Shown here: positions 1-43,449 of the stretch, in pieces
How positions within the stretch are numbered: position 1 is the first letter of the stretch
Layout of the letters: every line of letters begins with the position of its first letter
Sequence record: PZ445532.1
Source of the DNA: a phage
Direction: 5' to 3' (one strand)
DNA length: 44,581 nt
The notes under the pieces: model-generated
What the model was told of the DNA's origin: nothing
Databases searched by the model: none
The model's input: the letters and a program-made list of their open reading frames with translations, nothing else
Made by a program: the position numbers and the translations under genes

Positions 1-1386
1 ATGCGTAACTATGCGGCGGAACACCGCGCACTTGAACGAGAGATCGCAAAGCGCAACCGACCTCCACGCCCAACGCGCGTTGCGCAGGCCGTCCGCCTGT
101 ACCAGCCTGATTGCCTTCCGCACCAAGTGGAACTACTGCGGGACACGAAGACTAAAATCCTCGGCCTGTGTTCTGGCTTCGGTGGTGGAAAGTCATGGGT
201 CGCGGCGCGTAAGGTCATCCAGCTTCTGACACTGAACCCTGGGCATGACGGCATCGTGACCGAGCCGACTATCCCACTCCTGGTTAAAATCATGTATCCG
301 GAATTGGAGAAGGCTTTCGACGAGGCTGGCTTCCGGTGGAAGTTCAACAAGCAGGACAAGATCTATAGCGTTCTGGTGAAAGGCAAATGGACCCGCGTTA
401 TCTGCGAGTCAATGGAGAACTACACCCGCCTAATCGGGGTTAACGCCGCGTGGATTGTTGCCGACGAGTTCGACACCACGAAGCAAGACGTCGCAATGGC
501 GGCTTATCACAAATTGCTCGGTCGTCTGCGTGCGGGCTTCGTCCGCCAGTTCGTCATAGTATCCACGCCTGAAGGCTTCCGGGCGATGTATCAAATTTTC
601 GAGGTGGAGAAGGATAGCCAAAAGCGCCTGATCCGGGCGAAGACCACCGACAACCACCATTTACCGGCAGACTTTATCGACACGCTGCGCAGTCAGTACC
701 CGGCTAACCTGATCGACGCGTACCTGAACGGCCTATTTGTTAACCTTACGTCGGGCGCGGTGTATAAGATGTTCAACCGAGAGGAGAACGCCAGCACCGA
801 AGAAGTACAACCGGAAGACACGCTGATTATCGGAATGGACTTTAACGTCACGAAAATGGCGGCGGTCGTGTACGTCAGACGGCAGCGAGTCGCCGAGAAC
901 AAGGAGTTCCGCGACGAGATTCACGCGGTGGATGAATTTGTGGACCTGTTTGATACCCCGGCTATGATTGAGGCGATCGAGGAGCGCTACCCCGATCATT
1001 GTGCTGCCGGTCGTGTTGTCGTTTACCCGGATAGCAGCGGAAAATCCCGCAAAACGGTCAACGCGTCGTCGTCCGATATCGCGCAACTGGAAGATGCGGG
1101 CTTCGAGGTGGAGTATGACAGTGTTAACCCGCCTGTGAAAGACCGATTGATCGCGATGAATACGATGATGTGCAACTCGAAGGGTGTGCGCCAGTATTTT
1201 GTCAACCTGGATAAATGCCCTACACTAGCGAAATGTCTGGAACAGCAGGTGTACGACCTGAAGAAAGGCGAGCCGGATAAAACTGCCGGTGTGGACCACA
1301 TGAATGACGCAGCGGGCTACCCTATTGCGCACTTGTTCCCTGTGATTCGTCCGATCGCCGTTGTTCCTACCGTAGATTTCTACTAA
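1..1386 (+). CDS. terminase large subunit
   Basis: 461-aa ORF. Walker A-like GFGGGKSW and Walker B-like WIVADEFD motifs. Lies between the small-terminase candidate (which wraps across the window end) and the portal gene. Confidence 0.88.
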   Translation: MRNYAAEHRALEREIAKRNRPPRPTRVAQAVRLYQPDCLPHQVELLRDTKTKILGLCSGFGGGKSWVAARKVIQLLTLNPGHDGIVTEPTIPLLVKIMYPELEKAFDEAGFRWKFNKQDKIYSVLVKGKWTRVICESMENYTRLIGVNAAWIVADEFDTTKQDVAMAAYHKLLGRLRAGFVRQFVIVSTPEGFRAMYQIFEVEKDSQKRLIRAKTTDNHHLPADFIDTLRSQYPANLIDAYLNGLFVNLTSGAVYKMFNREENASTEEVQPEDTLIIGMDFNVTKMAAVVYVRRQRVAENKEFRDEIHAVDEFVDLFDTPAMIEAIEERYPDHCAAGRVVVYPDSSGKSRKTVNASSSDIAQLEDAGFEVEYDSVNPPVKDRLIAMNTMMCNSKGVRQYFVNLDKCPTLAKCLEQQVYDLKKGEPDKTAGVDHMNDAAGYPIAHLFPVIRPIAVVPTVDFY

Positions 1387-2918: not shown

Positions 2919-4005
2919 TCAATATATGGCGGATCGAATGATCCGCCGACACATCTTCACCCAGCGCCTGAGCAATGACCAGGCGCGAAGGGTGCTGGCT
3001 ATGTGGGAGAAGTTCCGGCCTACGTTACTGGGAAAGCTGACTGAGTTGCTTGATGGCAAATCGTCAATGAACAACAAGGCACTTTCAACCCTGCTAACGC
3101 AACTCGACAAGACCGTTAAAACAGAACTGCGCACCGAGTTTAAGGCGTTGGCTGAAAGCCTTCAGGAGTTTGCCGACACCGAGGCCGATTATCTCGCCGA
3201 CACATTAACGGCAGCGATCCAGCCGGTGGTCGCCGTACCGGCGGTCGAGGTGGTTGGCGTAGTGACCGGTGCGCAGATCGCAGCGACGGCAATTAAAAAC
3301 CCGTTCCAGGGTAATACGATGATGCAATGGCCTGACTCACTTTCTGAGTGGACCAGGACGCAGATCGGCAATCAGGTGCGCGCCGGATTCATCCAGGGCA
3401 AGCCGACTATGGAAATTATTGCGGACGTGAGGCGCGCGCTCGGCGGTCGTAGTGCGCAAGCTATCTCGAGCGTTGTTAAATCCGCAGTAAACCACTATGC
3501 GGCGACTGCCCGCGAACTAATGGTAAAAGCAAATGACGATATTCTCGAAGGTCGCCAATGGTTATCTACATTGGACACGCATACTTCTCCCATGTGCCAG
3601 CTACGCGATCGCCTGTTTTATCCGGTTGATGTTACTCCCGACACCAAAGGAAAGCGCGGCGGGAAAGTGGTGGCTGGATCACAATATGGCGCTGGTCCAG
3701 GCAAGCTACATTATTGCTGCCGTTCGACGGAGACGTGGAAAGTCAAAGGTATGGAAGATTGGCCCAGTGGTAAGCGTCCGGCACTGAAGGCTGACGCGGG
3801 GCGATTGCTGAGTGAGCAGGTCGACGCGCAGACTGATTTCTTCTCATGGGTGCAGCGCCAGCCGCGCCATATCCTGGAGGAATTATACGGGGTGCAACGC
3901 GCCGACCAGATTATGCGCGGCGTGAAAGTCCCGAAGATGTTCACCGATTCCGGCGAACTAATGACTATCGCACAGCTTAAAAACCGGGGGTTATGGCGTG
4001 ATTAA
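2902..4005 (+). CDS. head morphogenesis protein (minor head protein, SPP1 gp7 / Mu F-like)
   Basis: 367-aa ORF overlapping the portal stop. Typical position after the portal gene. Confidence 0.6.
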   Translation: MAKTINQYMADRMIRRHIFTQRLSNDQARRVLAMWEKFRPTLLGKLTELLDGKSSMNNKALSTLLTQLDKTVKTELRTEFKALAESLQEFADTEADYLADTLTAAIQPVVAVPAVEVVGVVTGAQIAATAIKNPFQGNTMMQWPDSLSEWTRTQIGNQVRAGFIQGKPTMEIIADVRRALGGRSAQAISSVVKSAVNHYAATARELMVKANDDILEGRQWLSTLDTHTSPMCQLRDRLFYPVDVTPDTKGKRGGKVVAGSQYGAGPGKLHYCCRSTETWKVKGMEDWPSGKRPALKADAGRLLSEQVDAQTDFFSWVQRQPRHILEELYGVQRADQIMRGVKVPKMFTDSGELMTIAQLKNRGLWRD

Positions 4006-4327
4006 ATATGCGGCTATTGGACTGGTTATGGGTCTGGCGGTAGGATTCTGGCTAGGTGACTCCTACCGCGCTGGCGTAGTGGCGAAGGCGGCGCAAGAAG
4101 CGCAATCCCAAGCCCAACGGCAGCAAACTAAAGTAATTGAGCGCTCCGTGCAGGCAGAACAAGCCCGCGACGTGGAATACCGGACTATCACAAAAGAGGT
4201 TGTTAAATATGTTACGCGCCCTAACCGCCCTGATTGTAGTTTTGACGCTGAGCGCGTGCGGATCAAGCAGCGTGCCGTTGATGCCGCTAACGGAATCGGC
4301 ACTGCGACCGCCGTGCAAGTTCGATAA
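3998..4327 (+). CDS. i-spanin (Rz-like inner-membrane spanin component)
   Basis: GTG start. N-terminal transmembrane helix IGLVMGLAVGFWLG followed by a charged Gln/Ala-rich coiled-coil-like region. Overlapped in the +1 frame by a lipoprotein ORF. Confidence 0.6.
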   Translation: MIKYAAIGLVMGLAVGFWLGDSYRAGVVAKAAQEAQSQAQRQQTKVIERSVQAEQARDVEYRTITKEVVKYVTRPNRPDCSFDAERVRIKQRAVDAANGIGTATAVQVR

Positions 4328-4439
4328 CCCGTCTGCGGACCCCGACGAAGATTTGATGATTGACGTGAAAAATATGGAATGCGGGGCGAAGCTAAGGGCG
4401 CAGGTGCTGGAGTTGCAGCAAATAATTAAGGGGCCATAA
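4209..4439 (+). CDS. o-spanin (Rz1-like outer-membrane lipoprotein)
   Basis: 76-aa ORF in the +1 frame relative to the i-spanin. Signal peptide with lipobox LTLSAC|GSS, proline-rich mature part. RBS AAGAGG upstream. Confidence 0.62.
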   Translation: MLRALTALIVVLTLSACGSSSVPLMPLTESALRPPCKFDNPSADPDEDLMIDVKNMECGAKLRAQVLELQQIIKGP

Positions 4440-16617: not shown

Positions 16618-17225
16618 CCACATTTAAATTATACGGCGTTTTAGGGCGTCGATTCGGTAAAGTGCATAAGCTGGACTGCTTCACTCCGGGCGAGGGTATC
16701 ACCGGCCTGTGCGTGAAGTTACCCGGCTTACAGGACTTTCTAATGTCGGCCCACCTGAACAATATGATGTTCAAGGTGCGCAAAGGCGACCACACGATGA
16801 CCGGCTATGATGAGCTGGGCGAGTTCCACGGCAACCGCGTAGTTACCATCGCGCCGGTTATGACGGGCGCAAAAAGAGGGTTGGGACAATTGCTGGCGGG
16901 TGTCGCGATCGTTGTGGCGTCGTTCTATACGGGCGGACTTGCTACTGCCGCTTTCGGGGCTTCGGCGGCGACCGCTGCCGCTATCGGGACGGCGACGTTT
17001 TCGTTCGGGATGTCGATGGCGCTGGGTGGCGTTATGCAATTGCTGTCGCCACAACCGAAAGGATTGCAGACAAGGCAGGACGTGGATAACAAGGCGTCGT
17101 ATGCGTTCGGCGGGCCTGTAAACACGACCGCGCAAGGTACAGCACTTGGTGTATTATGGGGTGAGCGTGAGATCGGCGGCGCTATTATTTCAGCCGGAAT
17201 CGTAACCGAGGACTTGAACGAATGA
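16608..17225 (+). CDS. tail assembly protein (lambda gpI-like)
   Basis: 205-aa ORF with a hydrophobic Gly/Ala-rich C-terminal half, between the K-like and J-like genes. Confidence 0.6.
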   Translation: MAMTTFKLYGVLGRRFGKVHKLDCFTPGEGITGLCVKLPGLQDFLMSAHLNNMMFKVRKGDHTMTGYDELGEFHGNRVVTIAPVMTGAKRGLGQLLAGVAIVVASFYTGGLATAAFGASAATAAAIGTATFSFGMSMALGGVMQLLSPQPKGLQTRQDVDNKASYAFGGPVNTTAQGTALGVLWGEREIGGAIISAGIVTEDLNE

Positions 17226-20200
17226 CGATTATCTACGACGTCACAGGGCATAAAGGCGGCGGCGGCAAACAGCACACCCCACAGGAGACGCCAGACAGCC
17301 TGCATTCGCTGGCTAAAATCCGCATCTTGCTTGCGCTGGGGGAAGGGGAATTCGAAAGTATTACCAGCGCCAGCGAATTGCGGCAGCGTGTTTACTTGGA
17401 TGGAACGCCGATCCAGAACGCTGACCTGTCCGAAAACTTCCCTGGCGCGCGTGTGGAGTTCCGCCCCGGCACACAGCACCAGGATGTGATCCACGGATTT
17501 TCAGCGGTGGAAAGTGAGCAATCTGTCGGCGTAAAACTGGAAAACGGCACGCCGTGGGTGCGCCAGATTAACGACACCAGTTTGGACGCCGTGCGCATCC
17601 GAGTCGGCATACCAGCCCTGTACACTAACGAAGATAATGGCGACCTGGTGGGCGGGCGCATCGACTATAAAATCGTTGTGTATACGGATAATGCCGACCC
17701 GCGTGAGTTCAGATTCGCCGCCGTTGGTAAAACAATGTCGCTGTATGAGCGCGACCACCGCATCGAATTACCGCCGAACGTGAATACCGGCTGGCGAGTG
17801 GAGGTGCACCGCATAACGGCGGACTCCACATCGGCGAAAGTGGTTAATGATATCCGGGTGCAGTCCATCACTGAGATTATTGACGCCCGTCTGCGTTACC
17901 CGCTAACCGCGCTGTTGTTTGTGGAGTTCGACGCCAAAGCGTTCCAGAACATCCCGCGCGTGTCCATCAAGTGCAAAGGCCGCAAAGTTCTAATACCGAA
18001 CAACTACGACCCGATTAACCATACCTATTCCGGGGACTGGGACGGCACGTTTAAACGCGCATGGACGGATAACCCTGCGTGGCACTGGTACGATATTTGT
18101 ATTACTGAGCGCTTCGGCCTCGGTCGGCGTATCAAACCGCAAATGTTGAACCGGTACGCGCTCTACCAGATTGCGCAGCGCTGTGATCAGTTGGTCAGCG
18201 ACGGCAACGGTGGGCAAGAAATCCGCTTTAAGAATGATATGTACATCCAGTCGCAGACAGACGCCTGGACCGTGCTTAAGGATTTAGCCGCCATCTTCGC
18301 CGGAATGACCTGGTGGGGCAACCAGATGTTGAATATCGTCAGTGACCAACCGGTCGCAGCGGTGTCCCACACTATCACCAACGCATCGGTTATTGATGGG
18401 CGCTTCGACTACGCGTCCGGTAGCCAGAAAACTCGATACTCCACGTTCGCGGTAGCATACGGCAACCCGAAGAACCACTATGAAGATGCCATCGCAACGG
18501 GGCAACGTGTCGAACTGGTACGCCGCCATAAGATTAACCGTCTTGATATTACGGCGATCGGCTGTACGCGTGAATCTGAAGCGCAACGCCGCGGGCACTG
18601 GGCGTTAATTTCCAACCAGCTTGACCAGCAAGTTAGCTTTAAAGTTGGCATGGAAGGGTTATTCTTTATTCCTGGTAGCGTAGTCGCGATCGCAGATACT
18701 AATATTTCTGGCGGATTCGAGACTCGTGGCGGTCGACTGTTGTCAGACCCCGGAACGCGTACCGTGCTGAACACGGACAGCGAAATCACGTTCCGCCCTG
18801 GCGATAAGTTCCTGGTGCGCACCGATAGCGGTAATGTGGAGACTCGCGAGATCGCCAGCGTCAACGGCAACAAGGTTACGCTAAAAACTGCACTGGATGC
18901 CGACCCGATTCCAGACCAGCCGTTTTGCGTTGATGGCAACGATATCCAGTTGCAGAAGTTCCGCATAACCGACCTGGAATATGACGACTCTACCAGCACT
19001 TTTTCGGTGCGCGGGATTGAATACAACGATAGCAAATATGATGCCGTTGATAATGGCGCGCGCCTTGACCCAGGCATCTTTACGCAAGTGCCTGACGGCG
19101 TAATGAAGGGGCCGGAATCCGTGACCATAACCCCGTCGCAGATTTCATCGCAAGGCCAGCTAATCACCAACGTGGATATTGTTTTCCCGCCGGTGAAGGA
19201 CGCCGTGGTGTATGAAATACAGTGGCGGCGCACCAGCTTACAGAATATGGAAATCCAGTGGGGTAACGACTGGGTGAATATCCCACGCACGGCGTCGAAT
19301 GGGGCGCACATCCCCAACGTGTTCTCCGGTAACTATCAGGCACGCGTCCGCGCAATCGGTATGGGTGAAATCTCGTCCCCGTGGGTGTCATCCGCAATCA
19401 CGCCGGTGGAAGGTCGCCTCGGTGGGCTTAACGCACCAATCATCACCAACGCGATTTCGGGCCTACACCAAATTTTGTGGAAGTGGAACCACAACAACGC
19501 CGCTACTGATATCTCTTACACCGAGCTTGAAGTGCGCAAGACTGGTGAGACTGAATGGAAATTCCTTACCAACGTTCCATATCCGGGCGCGGAGTACGCG
19601 CAAACGTCGCTTGAGTTCGGCATCTACCAGCAGTTGCGCGCCCGTGTAGCAGATAAAATCGGCAACCTGTCGGACTGGTCGGCCCCGTTTGAAGGGCAGG
19701 TAAGTGACAACGTTGACGAGTACATGAAGGGGCTTGATAACGAGTTCTTGACTTCCGAGGATGGTAAACACTTCCAGGAAGCTATTAACACGATCCCGCA
19801 AGGCATTTATGAGTCAATGCTCACCGACGCCCAGCAGCTATTCAACGCCCGCGCCGAGTACAAAGGGATTTATGCGGAAATCAAGGTGGCGTATAACGTG
19901 GCGGCAGACGCCAACAAGGCGGTAGCACAACTGGAAACGTTGATCGGCACGCGCCTTGATGACGCTGAAGCATCAATCCACACGTTGCAGACTGCGCAAA
20001 GCACACATGAAAAAGCGTTCGCCCAGTACCAGCAGACTGTTGCCGCTAAGTTTTCGGAACAGGAAGCCGCCATCCAGCAGGTACAAACGGCAACGGCGGA
20101 CGTGGCTGGCGCACTGGCGGAGTACAAGACCCAGGTCGCGGCGCAGTTCGGTCAGCAGTCCGCCGCGATCGAGCAGAAGATGACGTCTTCGTTTAACCAT

Positions 20201-20641
20201 GCGGGTGGCAGCGCCACGTACAGTCTTAAGGCTGGCGTGACGTATAACGGGACTTACTATGACGCCGGTATGCAGCTTTCCGTCGTGACGTCGGGCAACG
20301 CGGTTAAATCCCGCATCGCATTCAAGGCGGATCAGTTCTACATTATGCACCCATCTAATGGGTCGCTTTCTTCCGCTTTTATCGTGGATGGCGGGCAGGT
20401 GTATATTGACACGGCACGCATCAAGGACGCGTCAATCAACTTTGCACAGATCACGGACACGCTGCAATCGAATAACTACGACGGCAGTACGCGTGGTTGG
20501 CGCTTAGGGAAAGACGGAACGTTTATCAACCTGGGGACTGGAAGCGGTGGTGGTACAAAGCAGACCAACACCAACTACAGCGTTAAAGACGAGAACGGTG
20601 TTTTACGCGTGCAAATTGGCGAGCTTACTGGTCGCTGGTAG
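17222..20641 (+). CDS. central tail fiber / host specificity protein (lambda gpJ-like)
   Basis: 1139-aa ORF, similar in size to lambda J (about 1130 aa). Follows the I-like gene and is followed by a terminator. Confidence 0.85.
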   Translation: MTIIYDVTGHKGGGGKQHTPQETPDSLHSLAKIRILLALGEGEFESITSASELRQRVYLDGTPIQNADLSENFPGARVEFRPGTQHQDVIHGFSAVESEQSVGVKLENGTPWVRQINDTSLDAVRIRVGIPALYTNEDNGDLVGGRIDYKIVVYTDNADPREFRFAAVGKTMSLYERDHRIELPPNVNTGWRVEVHRITADSTSAKVVNDIRVQSITEIIDARLRYPLTALLFVEFDAKAFQNIPRVSIKCKGRKVLIPNNYDPINHTYSGDWDGTFKRAWTDNPAWHWYDICITERFGLGRRIKPQMLNRYALYQIAQRCDQLVSDGNGGQEIRFKNDMYIQSQTDAWTVLKDLAAIFAGMTWWGNQMLNIVSDQPVAAVSHTITNASVIDGRFDYASGSQKTRYSTFAVAYGNPKNHYEDAIATGQRVELVRRHKINRLDITAIGCTRESEAQRRGHWALISNQLDQQVSFKVGMEGLFFIPGSVVAIADTNISGGFETRGGRLLSDPGTRTVLNTDSEITFRPGDKFLVRTDSGNVETREIASVNGNKVTLKTALDADPIPDQPFCVDGNDIQLQKFRITDLEYDDSTSTFSVRGIEYNDSKYDAVDNGARLDPGIFTQVPDGVMKGPESVTITPSQISSQGQLITNVDIVFPPVKDAVVYEIQWRRTSLQNMEIQWGNDWVNIPRTASNGAHIPNVFSGNYQARVRAIGMGEISSPWVSSAITPVEGRLGGLNAPIITNAISGLHQILWKWNHNNAATDISYTELEVRKTGETEWKFLTNVPYPGAEYAQTSLEFGIYQQLRARVADKIGNLSDWSAPFEGQVSDNVDEYMKGLDNEFLTSEDGKHFQEAINTIPQGIYESMLTDAQQLFNARAEYKGIYAEIKVAYNVAADANKAVAQLETLIGTRLDDAEASIHTLQTAQSTHEKAFAQYQQTVAAKFSEQEAAIQQVQTATADVAGALAEYKTQVAAQFGQQSAAIEQKMTSSFNHAGGSATYSLKAGVTYNGTYYDAGMQLSVVTSGNAVKSRIAFKADQFYIMHPSNGSLSSAFIVDGGQVYIDTARIKDASINFAQITDTLQSNNYDGSTRGWRLGKDGTFINLGTGSGGGTKQTNTNYSVKDENGVLRVQIGELTGRW

Positions 20642-20677: not shown

Positions 20678-20980
20678 ATGGCATTCGGTATCGCAACGTG
20701 GGACGCGCAAGGACGCCCAAACAACTACGGCATTAAACCGGTAAGCGTGATCGGAAGGATTCATCTTGCGGAAGGACAAAAATCAGGCGCATGGTCATTC
20801 CCTGTACCGGCGGGGATGAAGGTCGGATACGTGGTCGCACTGGATAAAGGCGCGGTCGGGCCAGGACGCAGAATAACCGCCAGCGGGAACACTATCACGG
20901 TTTCCGCGGCAAGTGAGGTTGGGGGCGGGGTTTACTCCGCATCTGAATGTGACGTTATTGTTTTTGTGGAGCGAGCATAA
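20678..20980 (+). CDS. hypothetical protein
   Basis: 100-aa ORF after the J-like gene. Confidence 0.5.
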   Translation: MAFGIATWDAQGRPNNYGIKPVSVIGRIHLAEGQKSGAWSFPVPAGMKVGYVVALDKGAVGPGRRITASGNTITVSAASEVGGGVYSASECDVIVFVERA

Positions 20981-21654
20981 TGGCTAATTACGGCGCGTTG
21001 ATTGACTTACCAAACGGCAACCCGTTTATCACGCCAGAATCGACGCCGTTTTGTCTATTCCGCCGTGTGGTTGTTGGGTCTTCGGCTAACGGCACTGCGC
21101 AGTCGGCGGCTGCCGATATTAATTTGGGCGGTGACTACCCTGCAATAGCGTTTGTGAAAACTACGCACACCGCCCAGCCGACCGTCGTAGGGTCTTCTCG
21201 CGTTGGTAATGTGGTGAAGGTGAGCGCCAGCAATCCATTCGGGCAAGGCTTCACGATGACGGCTTACATCTTTGCCATATTCCCACAGACCCTTCCGCGG
21301 TGGGGCTTCGCTATTTGGGATAAGACGGGGAAGCTAGTGCTTACTAATGAGAGTCGCGTACTAAGCGATTTAGTTACCGTCGGATCGCCAGGCGCTAACG
21401 GGGGGATTAACATTGACCAGACGCTAAATGGCAGCTACGCCGTCGCTCCTGGCATATTGGGGTCTACGCTGATCAGGTTTTTTGTGCAGGGCCAGCCGCA
21501 AGTAATATCGGTAACGGCGTACACGGGGGCCAGATTCGATGGGTCGCGAACGCGTATATCGGCAGCGTCGTCGGGGAACGCCACGGGGGATGTGGTGGGG
21601 TATACTAACAACGGCAACGCGATTATGGCGATTAACACTGCCAATTATGATTGA
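20980..21654 (+). CDS. hypothetical protein (tail-associated by position)
   Basis: 224-aa ORF. Its ATG overlaps the upstream stop. Confidence 0.5.
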   Translation: MANYGALIDLPNGNPFITPESTPFCLFRRVVVGSSANGTAQSAAADINLGGDYPAIAFVKTTHTAQPTVVGSSRVGNVVKVSASNPFGQGFTMTAYIFAIFPQTLPRWGFAIWDKTGKLVLTNESRVLSDLVTVGSPGANGGINIDQTLNGSYAVAPGILGSTLIRFFVQGQPQVISVTAYTGARFDGSRTRISAASSGNATGDVVGYTNNGNAIMAINTANYD

Positions 21655-21680
21655 AGAAAGCCCCTTTCGGGGCTTATTTA
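21655..21680. terminator. hairpin shared by convergent genes (weak terminator)
   Basis: AAGCCCC-TTTC-GGGGCTT. Modest T-tracts on both sides. Confidence 0.45.
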
Positions 21681-21892
21681 CAGGTTGTGCTTTTGAAGTG
21701 GTCAACCGACACATACTGGAAGTTGAAGGGGTATCCCGCCCGTAACATTTTATGACCGCTAACGTCTGCAACCCCAAACACAGGGACGGAATACTCCATA
21801 CCACTATTCATGTATGTTGCGTCGCAGATTTTAGACGGCATGTCGGCACAACCCGCCAACAGAACCGCACAAATCATAATTAAAGTTTTCAT
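21674..21892 (-). CDS. small lipoprotein, candidate superinfection-exclusion protein (Cor/Llp-like)
   Basis: 72 aa from MKTLIMICAVLLAGCADMP (RBS AGGAG). Lipobox LLAGC. Antisense between tail genes. Confidence 0.6.
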   Translation of the reverse strand: MKTLIMICAVLLAGCADMPSKICDATYMNSGMEYSVPVFGVADVSGHKMLRAGYPFNFQYVSVDHFKSTTCK

Positions 21893-21973
21893 GGTATCAT
21901 CTCCTATATTTGGTTGGGTTTTAGTATTGCACCGCTCAACCAAGAATGCAACCAATTTTATGAGGATTCAGCT

Positions 21974-23734
21974 ATGGCAGCGGGTACACTATCCGTAACG
22001 AATAACAGCAAGGCGGTTGTCGGGGTAGGCACGACGTTTACCGCATTTAAAGCTGGCGACTTCTTAACGCTGGTGGTGGGGCAAGTCCCTTACACTGTTG
22101 CTATCGCGTCCGTCGAAAGCGACACCGCGCTTACGCTGGTGCTGCCGTTCGACGGCCCCACGGCAACCGGCCTTGCCTGGGATGGCGTTGCGCGCGATAC
22201 CATGTCGCTGGCAACGATGGGCGTAACAGTCCAGGCCCAAAAAGCATTGCGCTTGCTGATTGCAGATGAAAACAACTGGCGTGCAATCTTCGGCGACGCT
22301 GAAGAAATCACAGTGACTTTACCTAACGGGCAAGTTATGCAGGGTATGTCTTGGGGATACCTGTCGTCTTTGCTGAAGGAAGTCGACCCCGTTGAGATGC
22401 GCAACCTGCAACAACAAGCCGCCGCATCTGAAGACGCCGCGCAAGGATTTCGCAATGAGGCCGAAGGATTCAAGAATGAGACGGCTGGTATTCGCGACGC
22501 CACCAATCAGATTAAGGCGGATACGCAGGCGATCCACGACGCCACCGATGCGATCAAGACGCAAACCAACCAGATTAAGACTGATACGCAGGCTATAAAA
22601 GACCAGACCAACCAGATTAAGACGGATACTGGCGCTATTCGAGATCAGGCCAATACGGCGAAGACGGAAGCGCAAGCTGCCCGTGACGCCGCGCAGGGGT
22701 ATCGGAACGAGGCCGAACAATTTAAGAATGAGATTGACCCGTCGAAATTTCTGGCTAAGTCCAGCAACCTTAGCGACGTTGCTGACCCGGCGGCAGCGCG
22801 CGGGCACTTAGGCATCGGGACGACGGACACCCTTAACGTGGGCGGTCTGGTAACGTCCGGCGGTATCTCCGCGGGTCGTAACTCATGGGATGGATCTAAC
22901 TGGGGCAGTAAGAGTATTCTCGCCTCATTCGCTATCATATCCCCCGACGGAATCTCAACCCCTGGCTTATACGTGCGTAAATCCAATGGCGAGGCCGGTT
23001 ATGCCTCTGACTGGTTGTATTTTGAAAGCACGAATGCATGGGCCACTAAATCCAGTATTATTGGCGATCAGTTCCGATCCACTAAAGGCGCGATGGGATA
23101 TAACCAACTATGGTCGGAGGCTGTTGTACGAGCGGACCCATACACCGCGCAGGCCTACGCGGAAAACTTTCAGTCGTTAATCGCCGGTGCGTGTAAAACA
23201 CAAGGCATAGGCTACGAGGGCGGTGTTTCGTTTGGGATGATGACCACCGGTAACGACAACTGGCCCTGGGCACAGATCTCGATCGGCACAGCGGACCGTG
23301 ACTACGCGGGGAATATGGCTTCGTATATGCACTTCCGCTTTGACGACCAGGGGCGGATTTCTTACAGCGGGCCTGCGGGTGTTGGGTCGTTCCAGAAAGT
23401 ACCTGCGTCGGATCGCAACCTGAAACATGATATTGAAGATGACTCCAGCAGCACCGCCTACGACAATATCAAGGCTTTGCGGTTCCGTACGTTCGTATTC
23501 AACAACGATGAACAGGAACGGCAGCGTCGCGGTATTATTGCGCAGGAAGCGGAAGAAATAGACCCGCTGTACGTGAAGCATCGCGTGTATAACAACCAGG
23601 AATTAAATGGGCCACTAGTGCACCAGTTAGAACTAGACCCGACGCCGCTGTTACTTGATACTATGCGCGCATTGCAAGATACGATTAAGCAGGTGGAGGC
23701 GTTGAAAGCCGAGATCGCGGCGCTGAAGCAATAA
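21974..23734 (+). CDS. side tail fiber with C-terminal intramolecular chaperone (peptidase S74-like) domain
   Basis: 586 aa from MAAGTLSV (RBS TGAGGA). Repeats of the type IRDATNQIKADTQAIHDATDAIKTQTNQIKTDTQAIKDQTNQIKTDT. C-terminal SDRNLKHDI block resembles the self-cleaving chaperone domain of T5 pb1 / endosialidases. Confidence 0.8.
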   Translation: MAAGTLSVTNNSKAVVGVGTTFTAFKAGDFLTLVVGQVPYTVAIASVESDTALTLVLPFDGPTATGLAWDGVARDTMSLATMGVTVQAQKALRLLIADENNWRAIFGDAEEITVTLPNGQVMQGMSWGYLSSLLKEVDPVEMRNLQQQAAASEDAAQGFRNEAEGFKNETAGIRDATNQIKADTQAIHDATDAIKTQTNQIKTDTQAIKDQTNQIKTDTGAIRDQANTAKTEAQAARDAAQGYRNEAEQFKNEIDPSKFLAKSSNLSDVADPAAARGHLGIGTTDTLNVGGLVTSGGISAGRNSWDGSNWGSKSILASFAIISPDGISTPGLYVRKSNGEAGYASDWLYFESTNAWATKSSIIGDQFRSTKGAMGYNQLWSEAVVRADPYTAQAYAENFQSLIAGACKTQGIGYEGGVSFGMMTTGNDNWPWAQISIGTADRDYAGNMASYMHFRFDDQGRISYSGPAGVGSFQKVPASDRNLKHDIEDDSSSTAYDNIKALRFRTFVFNNDEQERQRRGIIAQEAEEIDPLYVKHRVYNNQELNGPLVHQLELDPTPLLLDTMRALQDTIKQVEALKAEIAALKQ

Positions 23735-23740
23735 GGCTAA

Positions 23741-23761
23741 GGGGCCATACGGCCCCTTTTT
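23741..23761. terminator. rho-independent terminator between convergent genes
   Basis: GGGGCC-ATAC-GGCCCC followed by TTTTT. Confidence 0.8.
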
Positions 23762-24335
23762 AGTTTGAGTTTTCCCAGTCCATTTTGCGCCGCACCAGCG
23801 GGCTTTCGTAATATTCCTTCCCATCCACCTCCACTAAGGGCCAGTCATTAACGATGACGTAAGGCTCTGCGATATCCTCGATCACGCCGTGCGCGCTATG
23901 TTGTCCGAAATCTACGCCCACCAGGATAACCCCGGCAACGCGACGAGTGAGATACTCGCGAGCGCAACGTGCCTCGACCAGTCCTCGACGTATGCCGCTA
24001 GTGGCTTTAACCTCGTAGGTCCATACGGCATCGATCACATGCTCGCGGAAGTCGGGGCCGGATTTAGCCTTACGCTTTCCAACCATGATAATATCGCCGC
24101 GGTCGATAGTGTTAGCGCTAAACAGGCCGGTACGCATTAGCAAACCTTGCGGGATGCAACTACGCCCGCCTGCCTGCCCTTCGAGGTACATTCCTGCAAA
24201 CATTTCGCCCAGCACACCGACAAGGCGACTTTGCTTGCAAGCGTCGGACTTATACCTCCACTGGTCAAACTCGATGCTTGCGATCATTGCCGCAAGGTGG
24301 AATTGTTTACCGGTTATTTCATATTCGCCGTACAT
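23760..24335 (-). CDS. hypothetical protein (possible PD-(D/E)xK-like motif)
   Basis: 191-aa ORF, RBS GAGGGA. GDIIMVG ... TYEVKAT could be a D...ExK nuclease motif. Weak. Confidence 0.5.
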   Translation of the reverse strand: MYGEYEITGKQFHLAAMIASIEFDQWRYKSDACKQSRLVGVLGEMFAGMYLEGQAGGRSCIPQGLLMRTGLFSANTIDRGDIIMVGKRKAKSGPDFREHVIDAVWTYEVKATSGIRRGLVEARCAREYLTRRVAGVILVGVDFGQHSAHGVIEDIAEPYVIVNDWPLVEVDGKEYYESPLVRRKMDWENSN

Positions 24336-42009: not shown

Positions 42010-42300
42010 ATGGATAAGCTAAACGAGTGGTTATTCGCCCTTGCGTGTCTTGCTGGTGGCTTCGTCGGCGCACGCATTCATGGCGAGGCAACGAAAGGGC
42101 CGTTGAACTTCGTTTTATATATCGTGGTTGGCTTCCTGTGTGCCATATTTGGTGCGCCAGCTATTGCCGAGTGGTCTGGTTTGTCTGGTGAGCGCACTGT
42201 TGCCGGTTTGGGCTTCGTAACTGCCATCTTCTGGATGCCAATAGCGGACCGGATCCGGGAGACTATTGCGTCGTTCCGACTTCCAGGGGGTGCAAAATGA
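42010..42300 (+). CDS. holin-like membrane protein
   Basis: 96 aa with 2-3 hydrophobic helices, immediately upstream of the endolysin block. Confidence 0.6.
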   Translation: MDKLNEWLFALACLAGGFVGARIHGEATKGPLNFVLYIVVGFLCAIFGAPAIAEWSGLSGERTVAGLGFVTAIFWMPIADRIRETIASFRLPGGAK

Positions 42301-42542
42301 TTATCTCCGTCCTGTTGTTTGTTATCATAGGGGCTTCGTCCCTGTTTAACGTGTATGCGCCGTCCGTTCAGGATGGCATCTTAGGCCGGGTGCTGTATCT
42401 GTTAACGGCAATGATCTGTCTTATCGGATTGCTGCAAACAGGAGACGTATCGGATACCACCTGGACCGCGTTAATCTGGCTGTTTGCATTGCGCACACTG
42501 CGTAATGCTGTTTTAAATGGGGTAAAACATGCGATTCAGTGA
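42297..42542 (+). CDS. second holin/antiholin-like membrane protein
   Basis: 81 aa with hydrophobic helices. Start and stop overlap the neighbouring genes. Confidence 0.5.
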   Translation: MIISVLLFVIIGASSLFNVYAPSVQDGILGRVLYLLTAMICLIGLLQTGDVSDTTWTALIWLFALRTLRNAVLNGVKHAIQ

Positions 42543-43020
42543 TAACGGTCTACGATTTACGGCAGCATGGGAGGCTTTCAGCCCAGTGCCGTATTTCGCG
42601 ACCAAGAAAGAGCAGGCCCGCGGCCTGTACACCTGGGGTTATGGGCACACCGGCACTAATCCGCCACGAAGCATTACCCGTGCGGAAGCGCTGGAACTGC
42701 TCAAGCGAGATGTGGCGTATGCCGAGGACTGGGTGAACAAATACGCACATCCGAGCATTAACCAGGCGCAATTCGACGCGCTGGTGGACCTGGTAATCAA
42801 TGCCGGTCAGGGTCCGATCGTACCGGATGACGTCGCGAATGATTTCGACGATGCGGTCCGCCTGGGCGACTGGGCGAAGGTCCGTGCTACACTGCCGCAG
42901 TTCCGCAAGCAAGGCGGGGAAGTGCTTAAGGGTCTGGTGCGCCGTGCAATCGGTAGACAGGCGTTGTTTGATGGTAAGCAGTGGGACGTTGCCGAGAAAA
43001 TCGGGCGTAACGCAGCATAA
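42529..43020 (+). CDS. endolysin (GH24 lysozyme-like)
   Basis: 163 aa with the lysozyme-like block YTWGYGHTG and surrounding conserved acidic residues. Confidence 0.85.
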   Translation: MRFSDNGLRFTAAWEAFSPVPYFATKKEQARGLYTWGYGHTGTNPPRSITRAEALELLKRDVAYAEDWVNKYAHPSINQAQFDALVDLVINAGQGPIVPDDVANDFDDAVRLGDWAKVRATLPQFRKQGGEVLKGLVRRAIGRQALFDGKQWDVAEKIGRNAA

Positions 43021-43035
43021 TACGAGGAACACAAT

Positions 43036-43449
43036 ATGTTAAAAAGCATTCTTGATCATAACGCCGACGCACTTGCTGCACTGGCTAAAACCGAAGACCC
43101 TGGCGCACGCGCTATCATCGCGGACACTATCAGCCATGCAGGCGTCTTTGACGCGAAGCTGCCGAGTGTGCCGGAAAGAAAGCCCGTGGCAAGTGCGACC
43201 GTAACCATCACCCCAGTGTCAGCCGCAGTTGGTGCGAAGGCCACCGCTTCTGTTGCCGTCCTGCCATCCGACGCAACTAACAAGGCCGGGAAGTGGGTGT
43301 CCGCAAACCCTGACTGCGCGGCAGTCAACCAGACTACCGGCGAAATCACAGCAAAATCGGAGGGTGGCGTCCACATCTTTTGGGTGGCATCCGATGGAGG
43401 CGGGGCGATGGCGTCCGCCATCTTCACCGTAACGGGAGCAGGAAAATAA
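43036..43449 (+). CDS. Ig-like (Big_2-like) domain protein
   Basis: 137 aa. C-terminal half resembles bacterial Ig-like domains (...ITAKSEGGVHIFWVASDGGG...FTVT). Confidence 0.55.
   Translation: MLKSILDHNADALAALAKTEDPGARAIIADTISHAGVFDAKLPSVPERKPVASATVTITPVSAAVGAKATASVAVLPSDATNKAGKWVSANPDCAAVNQTTGEITAKSEGGVHIFWVASDGGGAMASAIFTVTGAGK

What the first reader, a model, noticed from the sequence alone, without database searches (positions are those of the whole stretch)
21674..21892. Antisense lipoprotein between receptor-binding genes: candidate superinfection-exclusion factor
A 72-aa lipoprotein (lipobox LLAGC) is encoded against the flow of the tail genes, between the J-like gene region and the side tail fiber. 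T5 Llp and T1/phi80 Cor are small lipoproteins that block the phage's own outer-membrane receptor and are encoded next to receptor-binding genes. This gene has the same size, lipid anchor and location.
Basis: inference. Interest (0 to 1): 0.55.

Follow-up and report, generated by a model that had tools for sequence, protein, structure and literature searches.

The report
Cor receptor-blocking lipoprotein gene, already known

Summary
A 72-aa ORF lies at 21674-21892 (-), with an AGGAG ribosome site, a lipobox (LLAG|C) and a GC hairpin over its stop codon. It sits antisense between the J/100-aa/224-aa tail-tip genes and the side tail fibre.

It is a homologue of Cor, not just a look-alike:
- It scores 60.9 bits against the curated NCBIfam equivalog NF047972 "phage exclusion lipoprotein Cor" (cutoff 31).
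- It matches PHROG 1119 at E=6.5e-28.
- It is 51/40/40% identical to the Cor proteins of T1, phi80 and N15.

Three cysteines are invariant: the lipid-anchor Cys plus mature Cys9 and Cys57. The last two parallel the Cys11-Cys58 disulphide of T5 Llp. Llp bound to FhuA (8a60_B) is the top PDB fold hit for the predicted structure.

The gene order J-gp22-gp23-cor matches phi80, N15 and T1. The antisense orientation and the hairpin match T1.

The window is a Dhillonvirus genome. Its gp22/gp23 are 100% identical in protein to those of JLBYU60, an experimentally FhuA-dependent phage.

Many related records already annotate the gene as "super-infection exclusion protein cor", and a 2026 paper describes this cassette in Dhillonvirus. 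Verdict: interpretation supported, already known, low interest. Function in this genus is inferred, not tested.

The parts
21674..21892 (-). cor: 72-aa prolipoprotein (58-aa mature, about 6.4 kDa before lipidation). Stop codon included.
   Evidence: ORF and sequence. NCBIfam NF047972 at 60.9 bits against a cutoff of 31. PHROG 1119 at E=6.5e-28. dN/dS 0.06-0.14. Mature mass.
21851..21892 (-). Signal peptide, residues 1-14 (MKTLIMICAVLLAG). The lipobox L-A-G-C spans 21848-21859 and the lipidated Cys15 codon is 21848-21850.
   Evidence: Read directly from the sequence. Cys15 is invariant in 57 homologues. phi80 Cor is annotated with the same signal peptidase II site.
21680..21826 (-). Span bounded by the two other invariant cysteine codons: Cys23 (21824-21826) and Cys71 (21680-21682), i.e. 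mature Cys9 and Cys57. Probable disulphide tying the two termini together.
   Evidence: Both are invariant in alignments A1 and A2. T5 Llp has a Cys11-Cys58 disulphide reported as required for FhuA interaction (PMC9586334; bioRxiv 10.64898/2026.03.26.714494). That these cysteines form a disulphide in Cor is an inference.
21901..21905 (-). Ribosome-binding site AGGAG, 8 nt upstream of the ATG.
   Evidence: Sequence. Invariant in 4 Dhillonvirus genomes.
21923..21951 (-). Putative cor promoter: TTGCAT (21946-21951), 17-nt spacer, extended -10 TGcAATACT (-10 hexamer 21923-21928). Inferred only.
   Evidence: In 4 genomes TTGCA, TG and AATACT are invariant, while most substitutions fall in the spacer. 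The consensus scan did not call it, because the -35 matches only 3 of 6. phi80 cor is annotated with its own promoter.
21658..21675 (.). GC-rich hairpin AAGCCCC-TTTC-GGGGCTT between the convergent 224-aa gene and cor, overlapping the cor stop codon. Probable bidirectional terminator.
   Evidence: Folds at about -13 kcal/mol on the cor strand, z=-2.1, and z=-2.35 on the + strand. T1 has an annotated terminator at the same junction. It was not called by the terminator scan because the T-tails are short.
20980..21654 (+). gp23-like 224-aa protein (PHROG 425, 'membrane associated protein'). It belongs to the FhuA-type allele of the receptor-binding locus downstream of J.
   Evidence: PHROG E=4.6e-70. 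100% aa identity to JLBYU60, 64% to N15 gp23, 57% to phi80 gp23, 53% to T1 ST31. Locus interpretation from PMC8594841 and bioRxiv 10.64898/2026.04.02.716166.
20678..20980 (+). gp22-like 100-aa protein (PHROG 557, 'outer membrane protein'), first gene of the cassette.
   Evidence: PHROG E=9.9e-33. 100% aa identity to JLBYU60, 73% to N15 gp22, 70% to phi80 gp22, 54% to T1 ST32.
17222..20641 (+). J-like central tail fibre / tail tip protein, 1139 aa.
   Evidence: NCBIfam lambda_TipJ E=5.5e-109, below the model's strict cutoff. 98% aa identity to JLBYU60 J.
21974..23734 (+). Side (lateral) tail fibre, 586 aa, with a C-terminal Peptidase_S74 chaperone domain. Its start codon lies back-to-back with the putative cor promoter.
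   Evidence: Pfam PF13884 E=2.8e-12. PHROG 1980. The start matches the KarlBarth annotation.

Best explanation
The gene is cor, the Cor phage-exclusion lipoprotein of a virulent Dhillonvirus coliphage that uses FhuA as its terminal receptor. The proposed pathway is inferred from the sequence and from established E. coli lipoprotein biogenesis:
1. The precursor is exported by Sec.
2. It is diacylated at Cys15, cleaved by signal peptidase II and N-acylated.
3. [quoted passage not shown]

There the small beta-rich domain, clamped by a Cys9-Cys57 disulphide, is proposed to bind the periplasmic face of FhuA. By analogy with the solved T5 Llp-FhuA complex, it would lock the plug and extracellular loops in a state that the tail-tip receptor-binding proteins cannot use. 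FhuA-dependent phages could then neither adsorb to nor inject into an infected cell. Progeny would also not be wasted on FhuA in the debris of the lysed cell.

The gene is a separate transcription unit, antisense to the late tail operon, with its own RBS, a conserved putative promoter and a hairpin terminator. This is the same layout as in T1, and it would allow expression independent of the late genes.

Shown here: homology, lipobox, conserved cysteines, synteny, fold similarity, purifying selection, and the FhuA-type tail-tip module. Inferred: export, localisation, the disulphide, FhuA binding, timing of expression and the phenotype.
For: Family membership:
- NCBIfam equivalog NF047972 'phage exclusion lipoprotein Cor', 60.9 bits against a cutoff of 31, covering residues 2-71.
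- PHROG 1119 'Cor superinfection exclusion protein', E=6.5e-28, full length.
- tblastn finds 245 phage records. They include phi80 cor (40%, 1e-9), N15 gene 24 (40%), HK-type lambdoid cor (about 44%) and T1-like cor (47-56%).
- A profile search finds 212 proteins, many named 'phage exclusion lipoprotein Cor' by NCBI.

Conserved residues: Cys15, Cys23 and Cys71 are invariant.

Link to T5 Llp:
- The AF2 model has pLDDT 85.5. Its best hit among 350,542 PDB chains is 8a60_B, T5 Llp bound to FhuA (TM 0.54/0.61, rmsd 2.9 A over 59 columns, prob 1.00).
- In BFVD the next hits after a Dhillonvirus Cor are lipoproteins of phages I recognise as T5-like (my own knowledge), including one named 'Receptor-blocking protein'.
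- The Cor profile's top PDB sequence hit is again 8a60_B, E=0.0044.

Genomic context:
- The order J, 100 aa, 224 aa, cor is identical in phi80, N15 and T1.
- The antisense orientation with a terminator between gp23 and cor is as in T1.

Receptor: gp22/gp23 are 100% and J 98% identical in protein to JLBYU60, which is experimentally FhuA-dependent (PMC10373560).

Selection and assortment:
- dN/dS is 0.06-0.14.
- Cor stays 93% identical in phage mckay, whose gp22/gp23 are only 72%/52% identical. This fits a protein matched to the receptor rather than to a particular RBP allele.

Literature:
- Cor functionally inactivates FhuA (Uc-Mass 2004, as cited in bioRxiv 10.64898/2026.03.26.714494).
- The cor cassette was found in all FhuA-using Drexlerviridae and Dhillonvirus phages of the BASEL collection, and an AF3 model docks T1-like Cor on the periplasmic face of FhuA (PMC13164509).
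Against: - I found no experiment on any Dhillonvirus Cor.
- The allele is only 40-51% identical to the Cor proteins of phi80, N15 and T1. The papers read here cite exclusion experiments for the prophage Cor proteins (phi80, N15).
- The molecular mechanism of Cor itself is stated to be unresolved (bioRxiv 10.64898/2026.03.26.714494). One study, by its title, reports that Cor interacts with other outer-membrane proteins (Arguijo-Hernandez 2018, cited in PMC13164509; not read).
- The Foldseek E-value for Llp is 0.056. It is rank 1 but not significant on its own.
- The profile hit to Llp covers only the first ~43 residues, which include the signal peptide.
- There is no Pfam or PADLOC model hit.
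- The promoter and the terminator both fall below the simple consensus scans.
Confidence: 0.87

Rival explanations
1. It is a Cor-family lipoprotein, but in this genus it targets a different outer-membrane protein (another TonB-dependent transporter) or needs partner outer-membrane proteins. Its exclusion spectrum would then differ from that of phi80/T1 Cor.
For: It is only 40-51% identical to the Cor proteins of phi80, N15 and T1. Cor-like proteins accompany BtuB-using T5-like and Tempevirinae phages (PMC13164509). The title of Arguijo-Hernandez 2018 reports interaction with other outer-membrane proteins (cited in PMC13164509).
Against: The adjacent tail-tip module is identical to that of a FhuA-dependent phage (PMC10373560). 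In the BASEL set, Cor together with both upstream genes was found only in FhuA users (PMC13164509). The gene passes the NCBIfam equivalog cutoff.
Confidence: 0.07
2. It is a lysis protein: an outer-membrane spanin subunit (Rz1-like lipoprotein), not a receptor blocker.
For: Its size and lipobox resemble those of o-spanins.
Against: A spanin pair already exists elsewhere: Rz-like at 3998-4327 and an overlapping lipoprotein at 4209-4439, with PHROG spanin families at E=5e-36 and 2.5e-26. The holin and endolysin lie at 42-43 kb. The cor product matches no spanin family, has no adjacent i-spanin partner, and is not proline-rich.
Confidence: 0.02
3. It is a chance ORF or a decaying remnant with no function.
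For: Short ORFs are abundant on both strands here. Some related records leave the gene as 'hypothetical protein'.
Against: Selection is purifying at high synonymous divergence (dN/dS 0.06-0.14, dS 0.5-0.65). The RBS and start region are invariant. The ORF is intact and full-length in about 76 Dhillonvirus records at 80% aa identity or more. It gives strong family matches.
Confidence: 0.02

Closest known systems
Cor of phage T1 (ST30, YP_003915.1)
   Same: 51% aa identity over the full length. Same lipobox position and the same three cysteines. Same cassette of J, about 100 aa, about 225 aa, then cor. Same antisense orientation with a terminator hairpin between the 225-aa gene and cor. Both are virulent siphophages, and T1 uses FhuA.
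   Different: Different phage lineage (Drexlerviridae versus Dhillonvirus). In T1 the gene downstream of cor is a recombination gene (exonuclease VIII), whereas here the side tail fibre follows directly.
Cor of temperate phages phi80 and N15 (and HK022/mEp lambdoids), which the papers read here cite for FhuA inactivation
   Same: 40% aa identity. Same NCBIfam family. Same J-gp22-gp23-cor-stf order. A lipoprotein with its own promoter and terminator ('moron'), annotated as blocking FhuA.
   Different: In phi80 and N15 cor is co-directional with the tail genes and is expressed from the prophage for lysogenic conversion. Here it is antisense, in a virulent phage. The phi80 and N15 proteins have a 3-residue insertion after the lipobox.
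Llp of phage T5 (PDB 8A60 chain B with FhuA; NMR 7QJF)
   Same: A small outer-membrane lipoprotein of about 60 mature residues with a beta-rich fold, and the best PDB fold match to the Cor model. A terminal disulphide sits at equivalent positions (Llp Cys11-Cys58, Cor Cys9-Cys57). It is encoded next to the receptor-binding gene and acts on FhuA (PMC9586334).
   Different: Sequence similarity is marginal: E=0.8 for the single sequence, 0.0044 for the profile, and 24% identity in the structural alignment. The partner RBP, pb5, is unrelated to gp22/gp23. This gene is therefore not an Llp orthologue. It is at most a distant relative within one Cor/Llp superfamily, as proposed in bioRxiv 10.64898/2026.03.26.714494.
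Rtp45 of phage Rtp (PDB 9RPS chain D), the exclusion lipoprotein for LptD
   Same: Same genomic slot (downstream of J and the RBP in small siphophages) and the same general strategy of a periplasmic lipoprotein disabling the phage's own receptor (PMC12685063).
   Different: No meaningful sequence match: E=3.5, signal-peptide region only. Its target (LptDE) and its mechanism (steric displacement) are both different.

Membership tests
Cor phage exclusion lipoprotein (NCBIfam NF047972 / PHROG 1119) | Sequence matches the curated family model above its trusted cutoff, over the full length | tested here: met
   NF047972 equivalog at 60.9 bits against a cutoff of 31, residues 2-71 of 72. PHROG 1119 at E=6.5e-28, residues 1-72.
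Cor phage exclusion lipoprotein (NCBIfam NF047972 / PHROG 1119) | Lipoprotein signal peptide with a lipobox and an invariant +1 Cys; no inner-membrane retention signal | tested here: met
   L-A-G-C15 follows a K-containing n-region and a hydrophobic core, and +2 is Ala. Cys15 is invariant in 57 sequences. Actual lipidation was not tested.
Cor phage exclusion lipoprotein (NCBIfam NF047972 / PHROG 1119) | Two further conserved cysteines near the mature N- and C-termini | tested here: met
   Cys23 and Cys71 are invariant in A1 (8 sequences) and A2 (57 sequences).
Cor phage exclusion lipoprotein (NCBIfam NF047972 / PHROG 1119) | Encoded directly after the J, about 100 aa, about 224 aa tail-tip cassette | tested here: met
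   The order is the same in the window, phi80, N15, T1 and JLBYU60.
Cor phage exclusion lipoprotein (NCBIfam NF047972 / PHROG 1119) | The carrier phage uses FhuA as its terminal receptor | tested here: inconclusive
   The evidence is indirect but strong. gp22/gp23 are 100% and J 98% identical in protein to JLBYU60, which was shown experimentally to need FhuA (PMC10373560). The receptor of this particular phage cannot be tested here.
Cor phage exclusion lipoprotein (NCBIfam NF047972 / PHROG 1119) | Expression excludes FhuA-dependent phages and inactivates FhuA functions | not testable with these tools
   This needs plating and adsorption assays. It is reported for prophage Cor proteins such as phi80 and N15 (reviewed in PMC11436027; Uc-Mass 2004 as cited in bioRxiv 10.64898/2026.03.26.714494).
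T5 Llp family (lytic conversion lipoprotein) | Significant sequence similarity to Llp | tested here: inconclusive
   phmmer against 8a60_B gives E=0.8. The Cor profile gives E=0.0044, but the match covers the signal peptide plus about 25 mature residues.
T5 Llp family (lytic conversion lipoprotein) | Llp-like beta-rich fold with a disulphide linking the termini | tested here: met
   8a60_B is rank 1 of 350,542 PDB chains, with TM 0.54/0.61 and rmsd 2.9 A, although E=0.056. The cysteines sit at equivalent mature positions (PMC9586334).
T5 Llp family (lytic conversion lipoprotein) | Adjacent to a pb5-type receptor-binding gene | tested here: not met
   The neighbours are gp22/gp23-type genes (PHROG 557 and 425), not pb5.
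o-spanin (Rz1-like) | Outer-membrane lipoprotein paired with (overlapping or adjacent to) an i-spanin gene, matching spanin families | tested here: not met
   There is no spanin family hit and no i-spanin neighbour. The genome's spanin pair is at 3998-4439.

The most novel reading that the evidence does not exclude
The antisense placement may be a regulatory device rather than a neutral inversion. cor would fire early from its own promoter. Once late transcription from the J operon reads through the weak bidirectional hairpin towards the side-tail-fibre gene, it would collide with cor transcription and produce antisense RNA, giving a timed switch. In addition, Dhillonvirus Cor stays constant while the gp22/gp23 receptor-binding alleles are swapped. 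It might therefore protect against a broader set of FhuA-binding modes than the phage's own. Neither idea was tested here.
Probability: 0.12. Interest if true: 0.35.

Novelty: already known. Interest (0 to 1): 0.1.

Why it matters
The finding adds little. It confirms that reading the sequence alone can recognise a receptor-blocking lipoprotein from its size, lipobox and position. It also lets this phage be assigned in silico to the FhuA-using group of small siphophages. In practice a cor gene predicts two things. Cells infected by this phage should become refractory to T1, T5, phi80 and other FhuA phages, which matters when designing phage cocktails. FhuA-dependent uptake (ferrichrome, albomycin, colicin M) should also be impaired during infection. 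The mechanism of Cor, unlike that of Llp, still lacks an experimental structure. A well-expressed Dhillonvirus allele could serve for that work, but nothing about this allele is special.

Tried and rejected
- Pfam gave no hit for Cor, gp22 or gp23.
- PADLOC gave no hit.
- Rfam at gathering thresholds and the tRNA scan found nothing in the window.
- The single-sequence homologue search returned only 6 near-identical proteins because of its word index. Repeating it with an alignment of phage Cor proteins gave 212.
- The consensus promoter/terminator scan called neither the hairpin at 21658-21675 nor a cor promoter. Its one '-' strand promoter hit (21900-21873) overlaps the start codon, so I disregarded it. 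The hairpin and promoter I report rest on folding and on conservation in four genomes. They are marked as inferred.
- The spanin reading was rejected after locating the real spanin pair.
- The 93-aa TTG-initiated version of the ORF was rejected on the RBS and on homologue starts.
- + strand ORFs overlapping cor (21752-21883, 21810-21998) are short and were not pursued.
- The Rtp genome paper (PMC1367250) is not held in the library.

Full report
**Observation**

The - strand between 21892 and 21674 carries an ATG-initiated ORF of 72 codons: MKTLIMICAVLLAGCADMPSKICDATYMNSGMEYSVPVFGVADVSGHKMLRAGYPFNFQYVSVDHFKSTTCK.
- AGGAG lies 8 nt upstream of the ATG.
- The N-terminus has a Lys-containing n-region and a hydrophobic core, followed by the lipobox L-A-G-C15.
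- Residue +2 is Ala. Under the E. coli sorting rule (established knowledge) this predicts transfer to the outer membrane.
- The gene is antisense to the J-like gene (17222-20641), a 100-aa gene (20678-20980), a 224-aa gene (20980-21654) and the side tail fibre (21974-23734).

Short ORFs are common here: 59 of 40 aa or more overlap the surrounding 6 kb. The ORF alone is therefore not evidence of a gene. The evidence is homology and selection, set out below.

**Identity**

- The protein passes the curated NCBIfam equivalog NF047972 "phage exclusion lipoprotein Cor" at 60.9 bits against a cutoff of 31.
- It matches PHROG 1119 "Cor superinfection exclusion protein" over its whole length at E=6.5e-28.
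- tblastn against 50,697 phage records finds 245 records. About 76 are Dhillonvirus-type at 80-100% identity. T1-like phages are at 47-56%, lambdoid HK/mEp phages at about 44%, and phi80 and N15 at 40%.
- Direct blastp gives T1 51%, phi80 40%, N15 41% and SSU5 30%.
- A profile search of 5.8 billion proteins returns 212 relatives. Many are named "phage exclusion lipoprotein Cor" or "cor protein", and several sit on contigs of 2-5 Mb, i.e. bacterial chromosomes.
- In a 57-sequence alignment the lipobox Cys15 and two further cysteines, Cys23 and Cys71, are invariant.
- Pfam and PADLOC have no model for the family.

**Context**

The window is essentially a complete Dhillonvirus genome, about 93% identical in nucleotide sequence to JLBYU60 and EC115. 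Close relatives already annotate this gene as "super-infection exclusion protein (cor)".

The order J, 100 aa, 224 aa, cor, tail fibre is the same as phi80 genes 21-22-23-cor-stf and N15 genes 21-25. T1 has ST33-ST32-ST31-cor.
- In phi80 and N15, cor is co-directional with the tail genes.
- In T1, as here, it is antisense, with a terminator annotated between the 225-aa gene and cor.

**Receptor**

The 100-aa and 224-aa proteins are 100% identical, and J 98% identical, to those of JLBYU60. JLBYU60 was shown experimentally to depend on FhuA (PMC10373560).

The BASEL study and a 2026 receptor-screen preprint both conclude that the locus downstream of J encodes the receptor-binding protein, accessory proteins and a cognate exclusion factor. 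They also conclude that its alleles predict the receptor (PMC8594841; bioRxiv 10.64898/2026.04.02.716166).

A 2026 paper reports Cor plus both upstream genes in ten BASEL phages (Drexlerviridae and Dhillonvirus), all of them FhuA users (PMC13164509). This phage is therefore very probably FhuA-dependent, and its Cor is matched to its own receptor.

**Mechanism**

The AF2 model built on 57 homologues is confident for the mature domain, with mean pLDDT 85.5 and about 95 for residues 21-70. It shows four beta-strands.
- Its best match among 350,542 PDB chains is 8a60_B, T5 Llp bound to FhuA. The scores are TM 0.54/0.61, rmsd 2.9 A over 59 columns and 24% identity. E=0.056 is not significant alone.
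- In the viral structure library, the hits after a Dhillonvirus Cor are lipoproteins of phages I recognise as T5-like (my own knowledge). One of them is named "Receptor-blocking protein".
- The Cor profile's best PDB sequence hit is also 8a60_B, at E=0.0044. Part of that match is signal peptide.
- Llp has a Cys11-Cys58 disulphide tying its termini, reported as required for FhuA interaction. [quoted passage not shown]
- The invariant cysteines of Cor fall at mature positions 9 and 57.

The same preprint concludes from predicted structures that Cor and Llp form one family. PMC13164509 reports an AF3 model of a T1-like Cor on the periplasmic face of FhuA.

The most likely mechanism for this gene is therefore an outer-membrane-anchored periplasmic lipoprotein that binds FhuA and makes it unusable for tail-tip binding. 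This step is inferred. The mechanism of Cor itself is stated to be unresolved, and I found no test of a Dhillonvirus allele.

**Expression signals**

A 7-bp GC-rich hairpin (21658-21675) overlaps the cor stop codon and lies 4 nt after the stop of the 224-aa gene. It folds at about -13 kcal/mol (z about -2.1 to -2.4) on either strand. Its T-tracts are too short for the consensus scan.

Upstream of cor, TTGCAT, a 17-nt spacer and TGcAATACT lie at 21951-21923. In four Dhillonvirus genomes, TTGCA, TG and AATACT are invariant, while most substitutions lie in the spacer. The -35 matches only 3 of 6, so the scan did not call it. Both signals are plausible but unproven.

**Selection and mosaicism**

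Against JLBYU60 and KarlBarth, cor has dS 0.65 and 0.53 with dN/dS 0.14 and 0.06. It is a constrained coding gene.

The adjacent 100-aa and 224-aa genes are nearly identical in nucleotide sequence (dS 0.03-0.09), although J (dS 0.30-0.41) and cor are well diverged.

Conversely, phage mckay keeps Cor at 93% and J at 97.5% but has the two cassette proteins at 72% and 52%.

The receptor-binding cassette therefore recombines independently of cor, with one junction near the hairpin. This fits an exclusion factor matched to the receptor rather than to a given RBP allele.

**Rivals**

- A spanin role is excluded. The genome has a separate Rz-like/o-spanin pair at 3998-4439, with holin and endolysin at 42-43 kb.
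- A chance ORF is excluded by selection and family matches.
- A different target protein remains possible at low probability.

**Verdict**

The feature is a textbook cor gene in its usual cassette, already annotated in relatives and discussed in the literature, so interest is low.

Noticed in passing
window 20678-21654 compared with 17222-20641 and 21674-21892; loci L008, L002, L009: The 100-aa and 224-aa tail-tip genes are about 99% identical in nucleotide sequence to JLBYU60 and KarlBarth (dS 0.03-0.09). The flanking J (dS 0.30-0.41) and cor (dS 0.53-0.65) are much more diverged. Phage mckay shows the opposite pattern: Cor 93% and J 97.5%, but gp22 72%, gp23 52% and the last 40 aa of J 79%. 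The receptor-binding cassette is exchanged independently of cor, with a junction near the hairpin at 21658-21675.
   Followed up: partly
window 3998-4439 (+): The spanin pair (Rz-like at 3998-4327, plus an overlapping o-spanin lipoprotein at 4209-4439 with lipobox LSAC) sits just after the head-morphogenesis gene. It is about 38 kb from the holin (42010-42300) and endolysin (42529-43020), so the lysis cassette is split.
   Followed up: partly
window 21974-23734 (+): The side tail fibre has a C-terminal Peptidase_S74 intramolecular chaperone domain and a 63-bp x 2 tandem repeat (22502-22624) in its coiled-coil part. It is mosaic compared with relatives: 55% identity to JLBYU60 overall, and only the N-terminal ~250 aa is shared with KarlBarth. 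This is typical of host-range (O-antigen) variation.
   Followed up: partly
window 21923-21976: The putative cor promoter (- strand) and the ribosome site and start codon of the side-tail-fibre gene (+ strand, GAGGA 21963-21967, ATG 21974) lie back-to-back within about 50 bp. If late transcription reaches the fibre gene by reading through the hairpin at 21658-21675, it must cross cor in antisense.
   Followed up: no
window 23739-23758 and 23760-24335 (-): A strong terminator-like hairpin (8 bp, 6 GC, T-run) follows the tail-fibre gene and faces a convergent 191-aa gene of unknown function (PHROG 10558, E=2.6e-119), which is also present in JLBYU60 and mckay.
   Followed up: no
window 1-1386 and the window ends: The window starts exactly at the ATG of the large terminase gene and has the length of a Dhillonvirus genome (44,581 bp). 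By synteny with JLBYU60, the small terminase gene would run off the 3' end. No tRNA genes and no Rfam matches were found in the whole window.
   Followed up: partly
window 43036-43449 (+): A 137-aa ORF directly after the endolysin carries an Ig-like domain of the kind found on major tail or decoration proteins (PHROG 215 and 341). JLBYU60 annotates only a short 'major tail protein' there.
   Followed up: no
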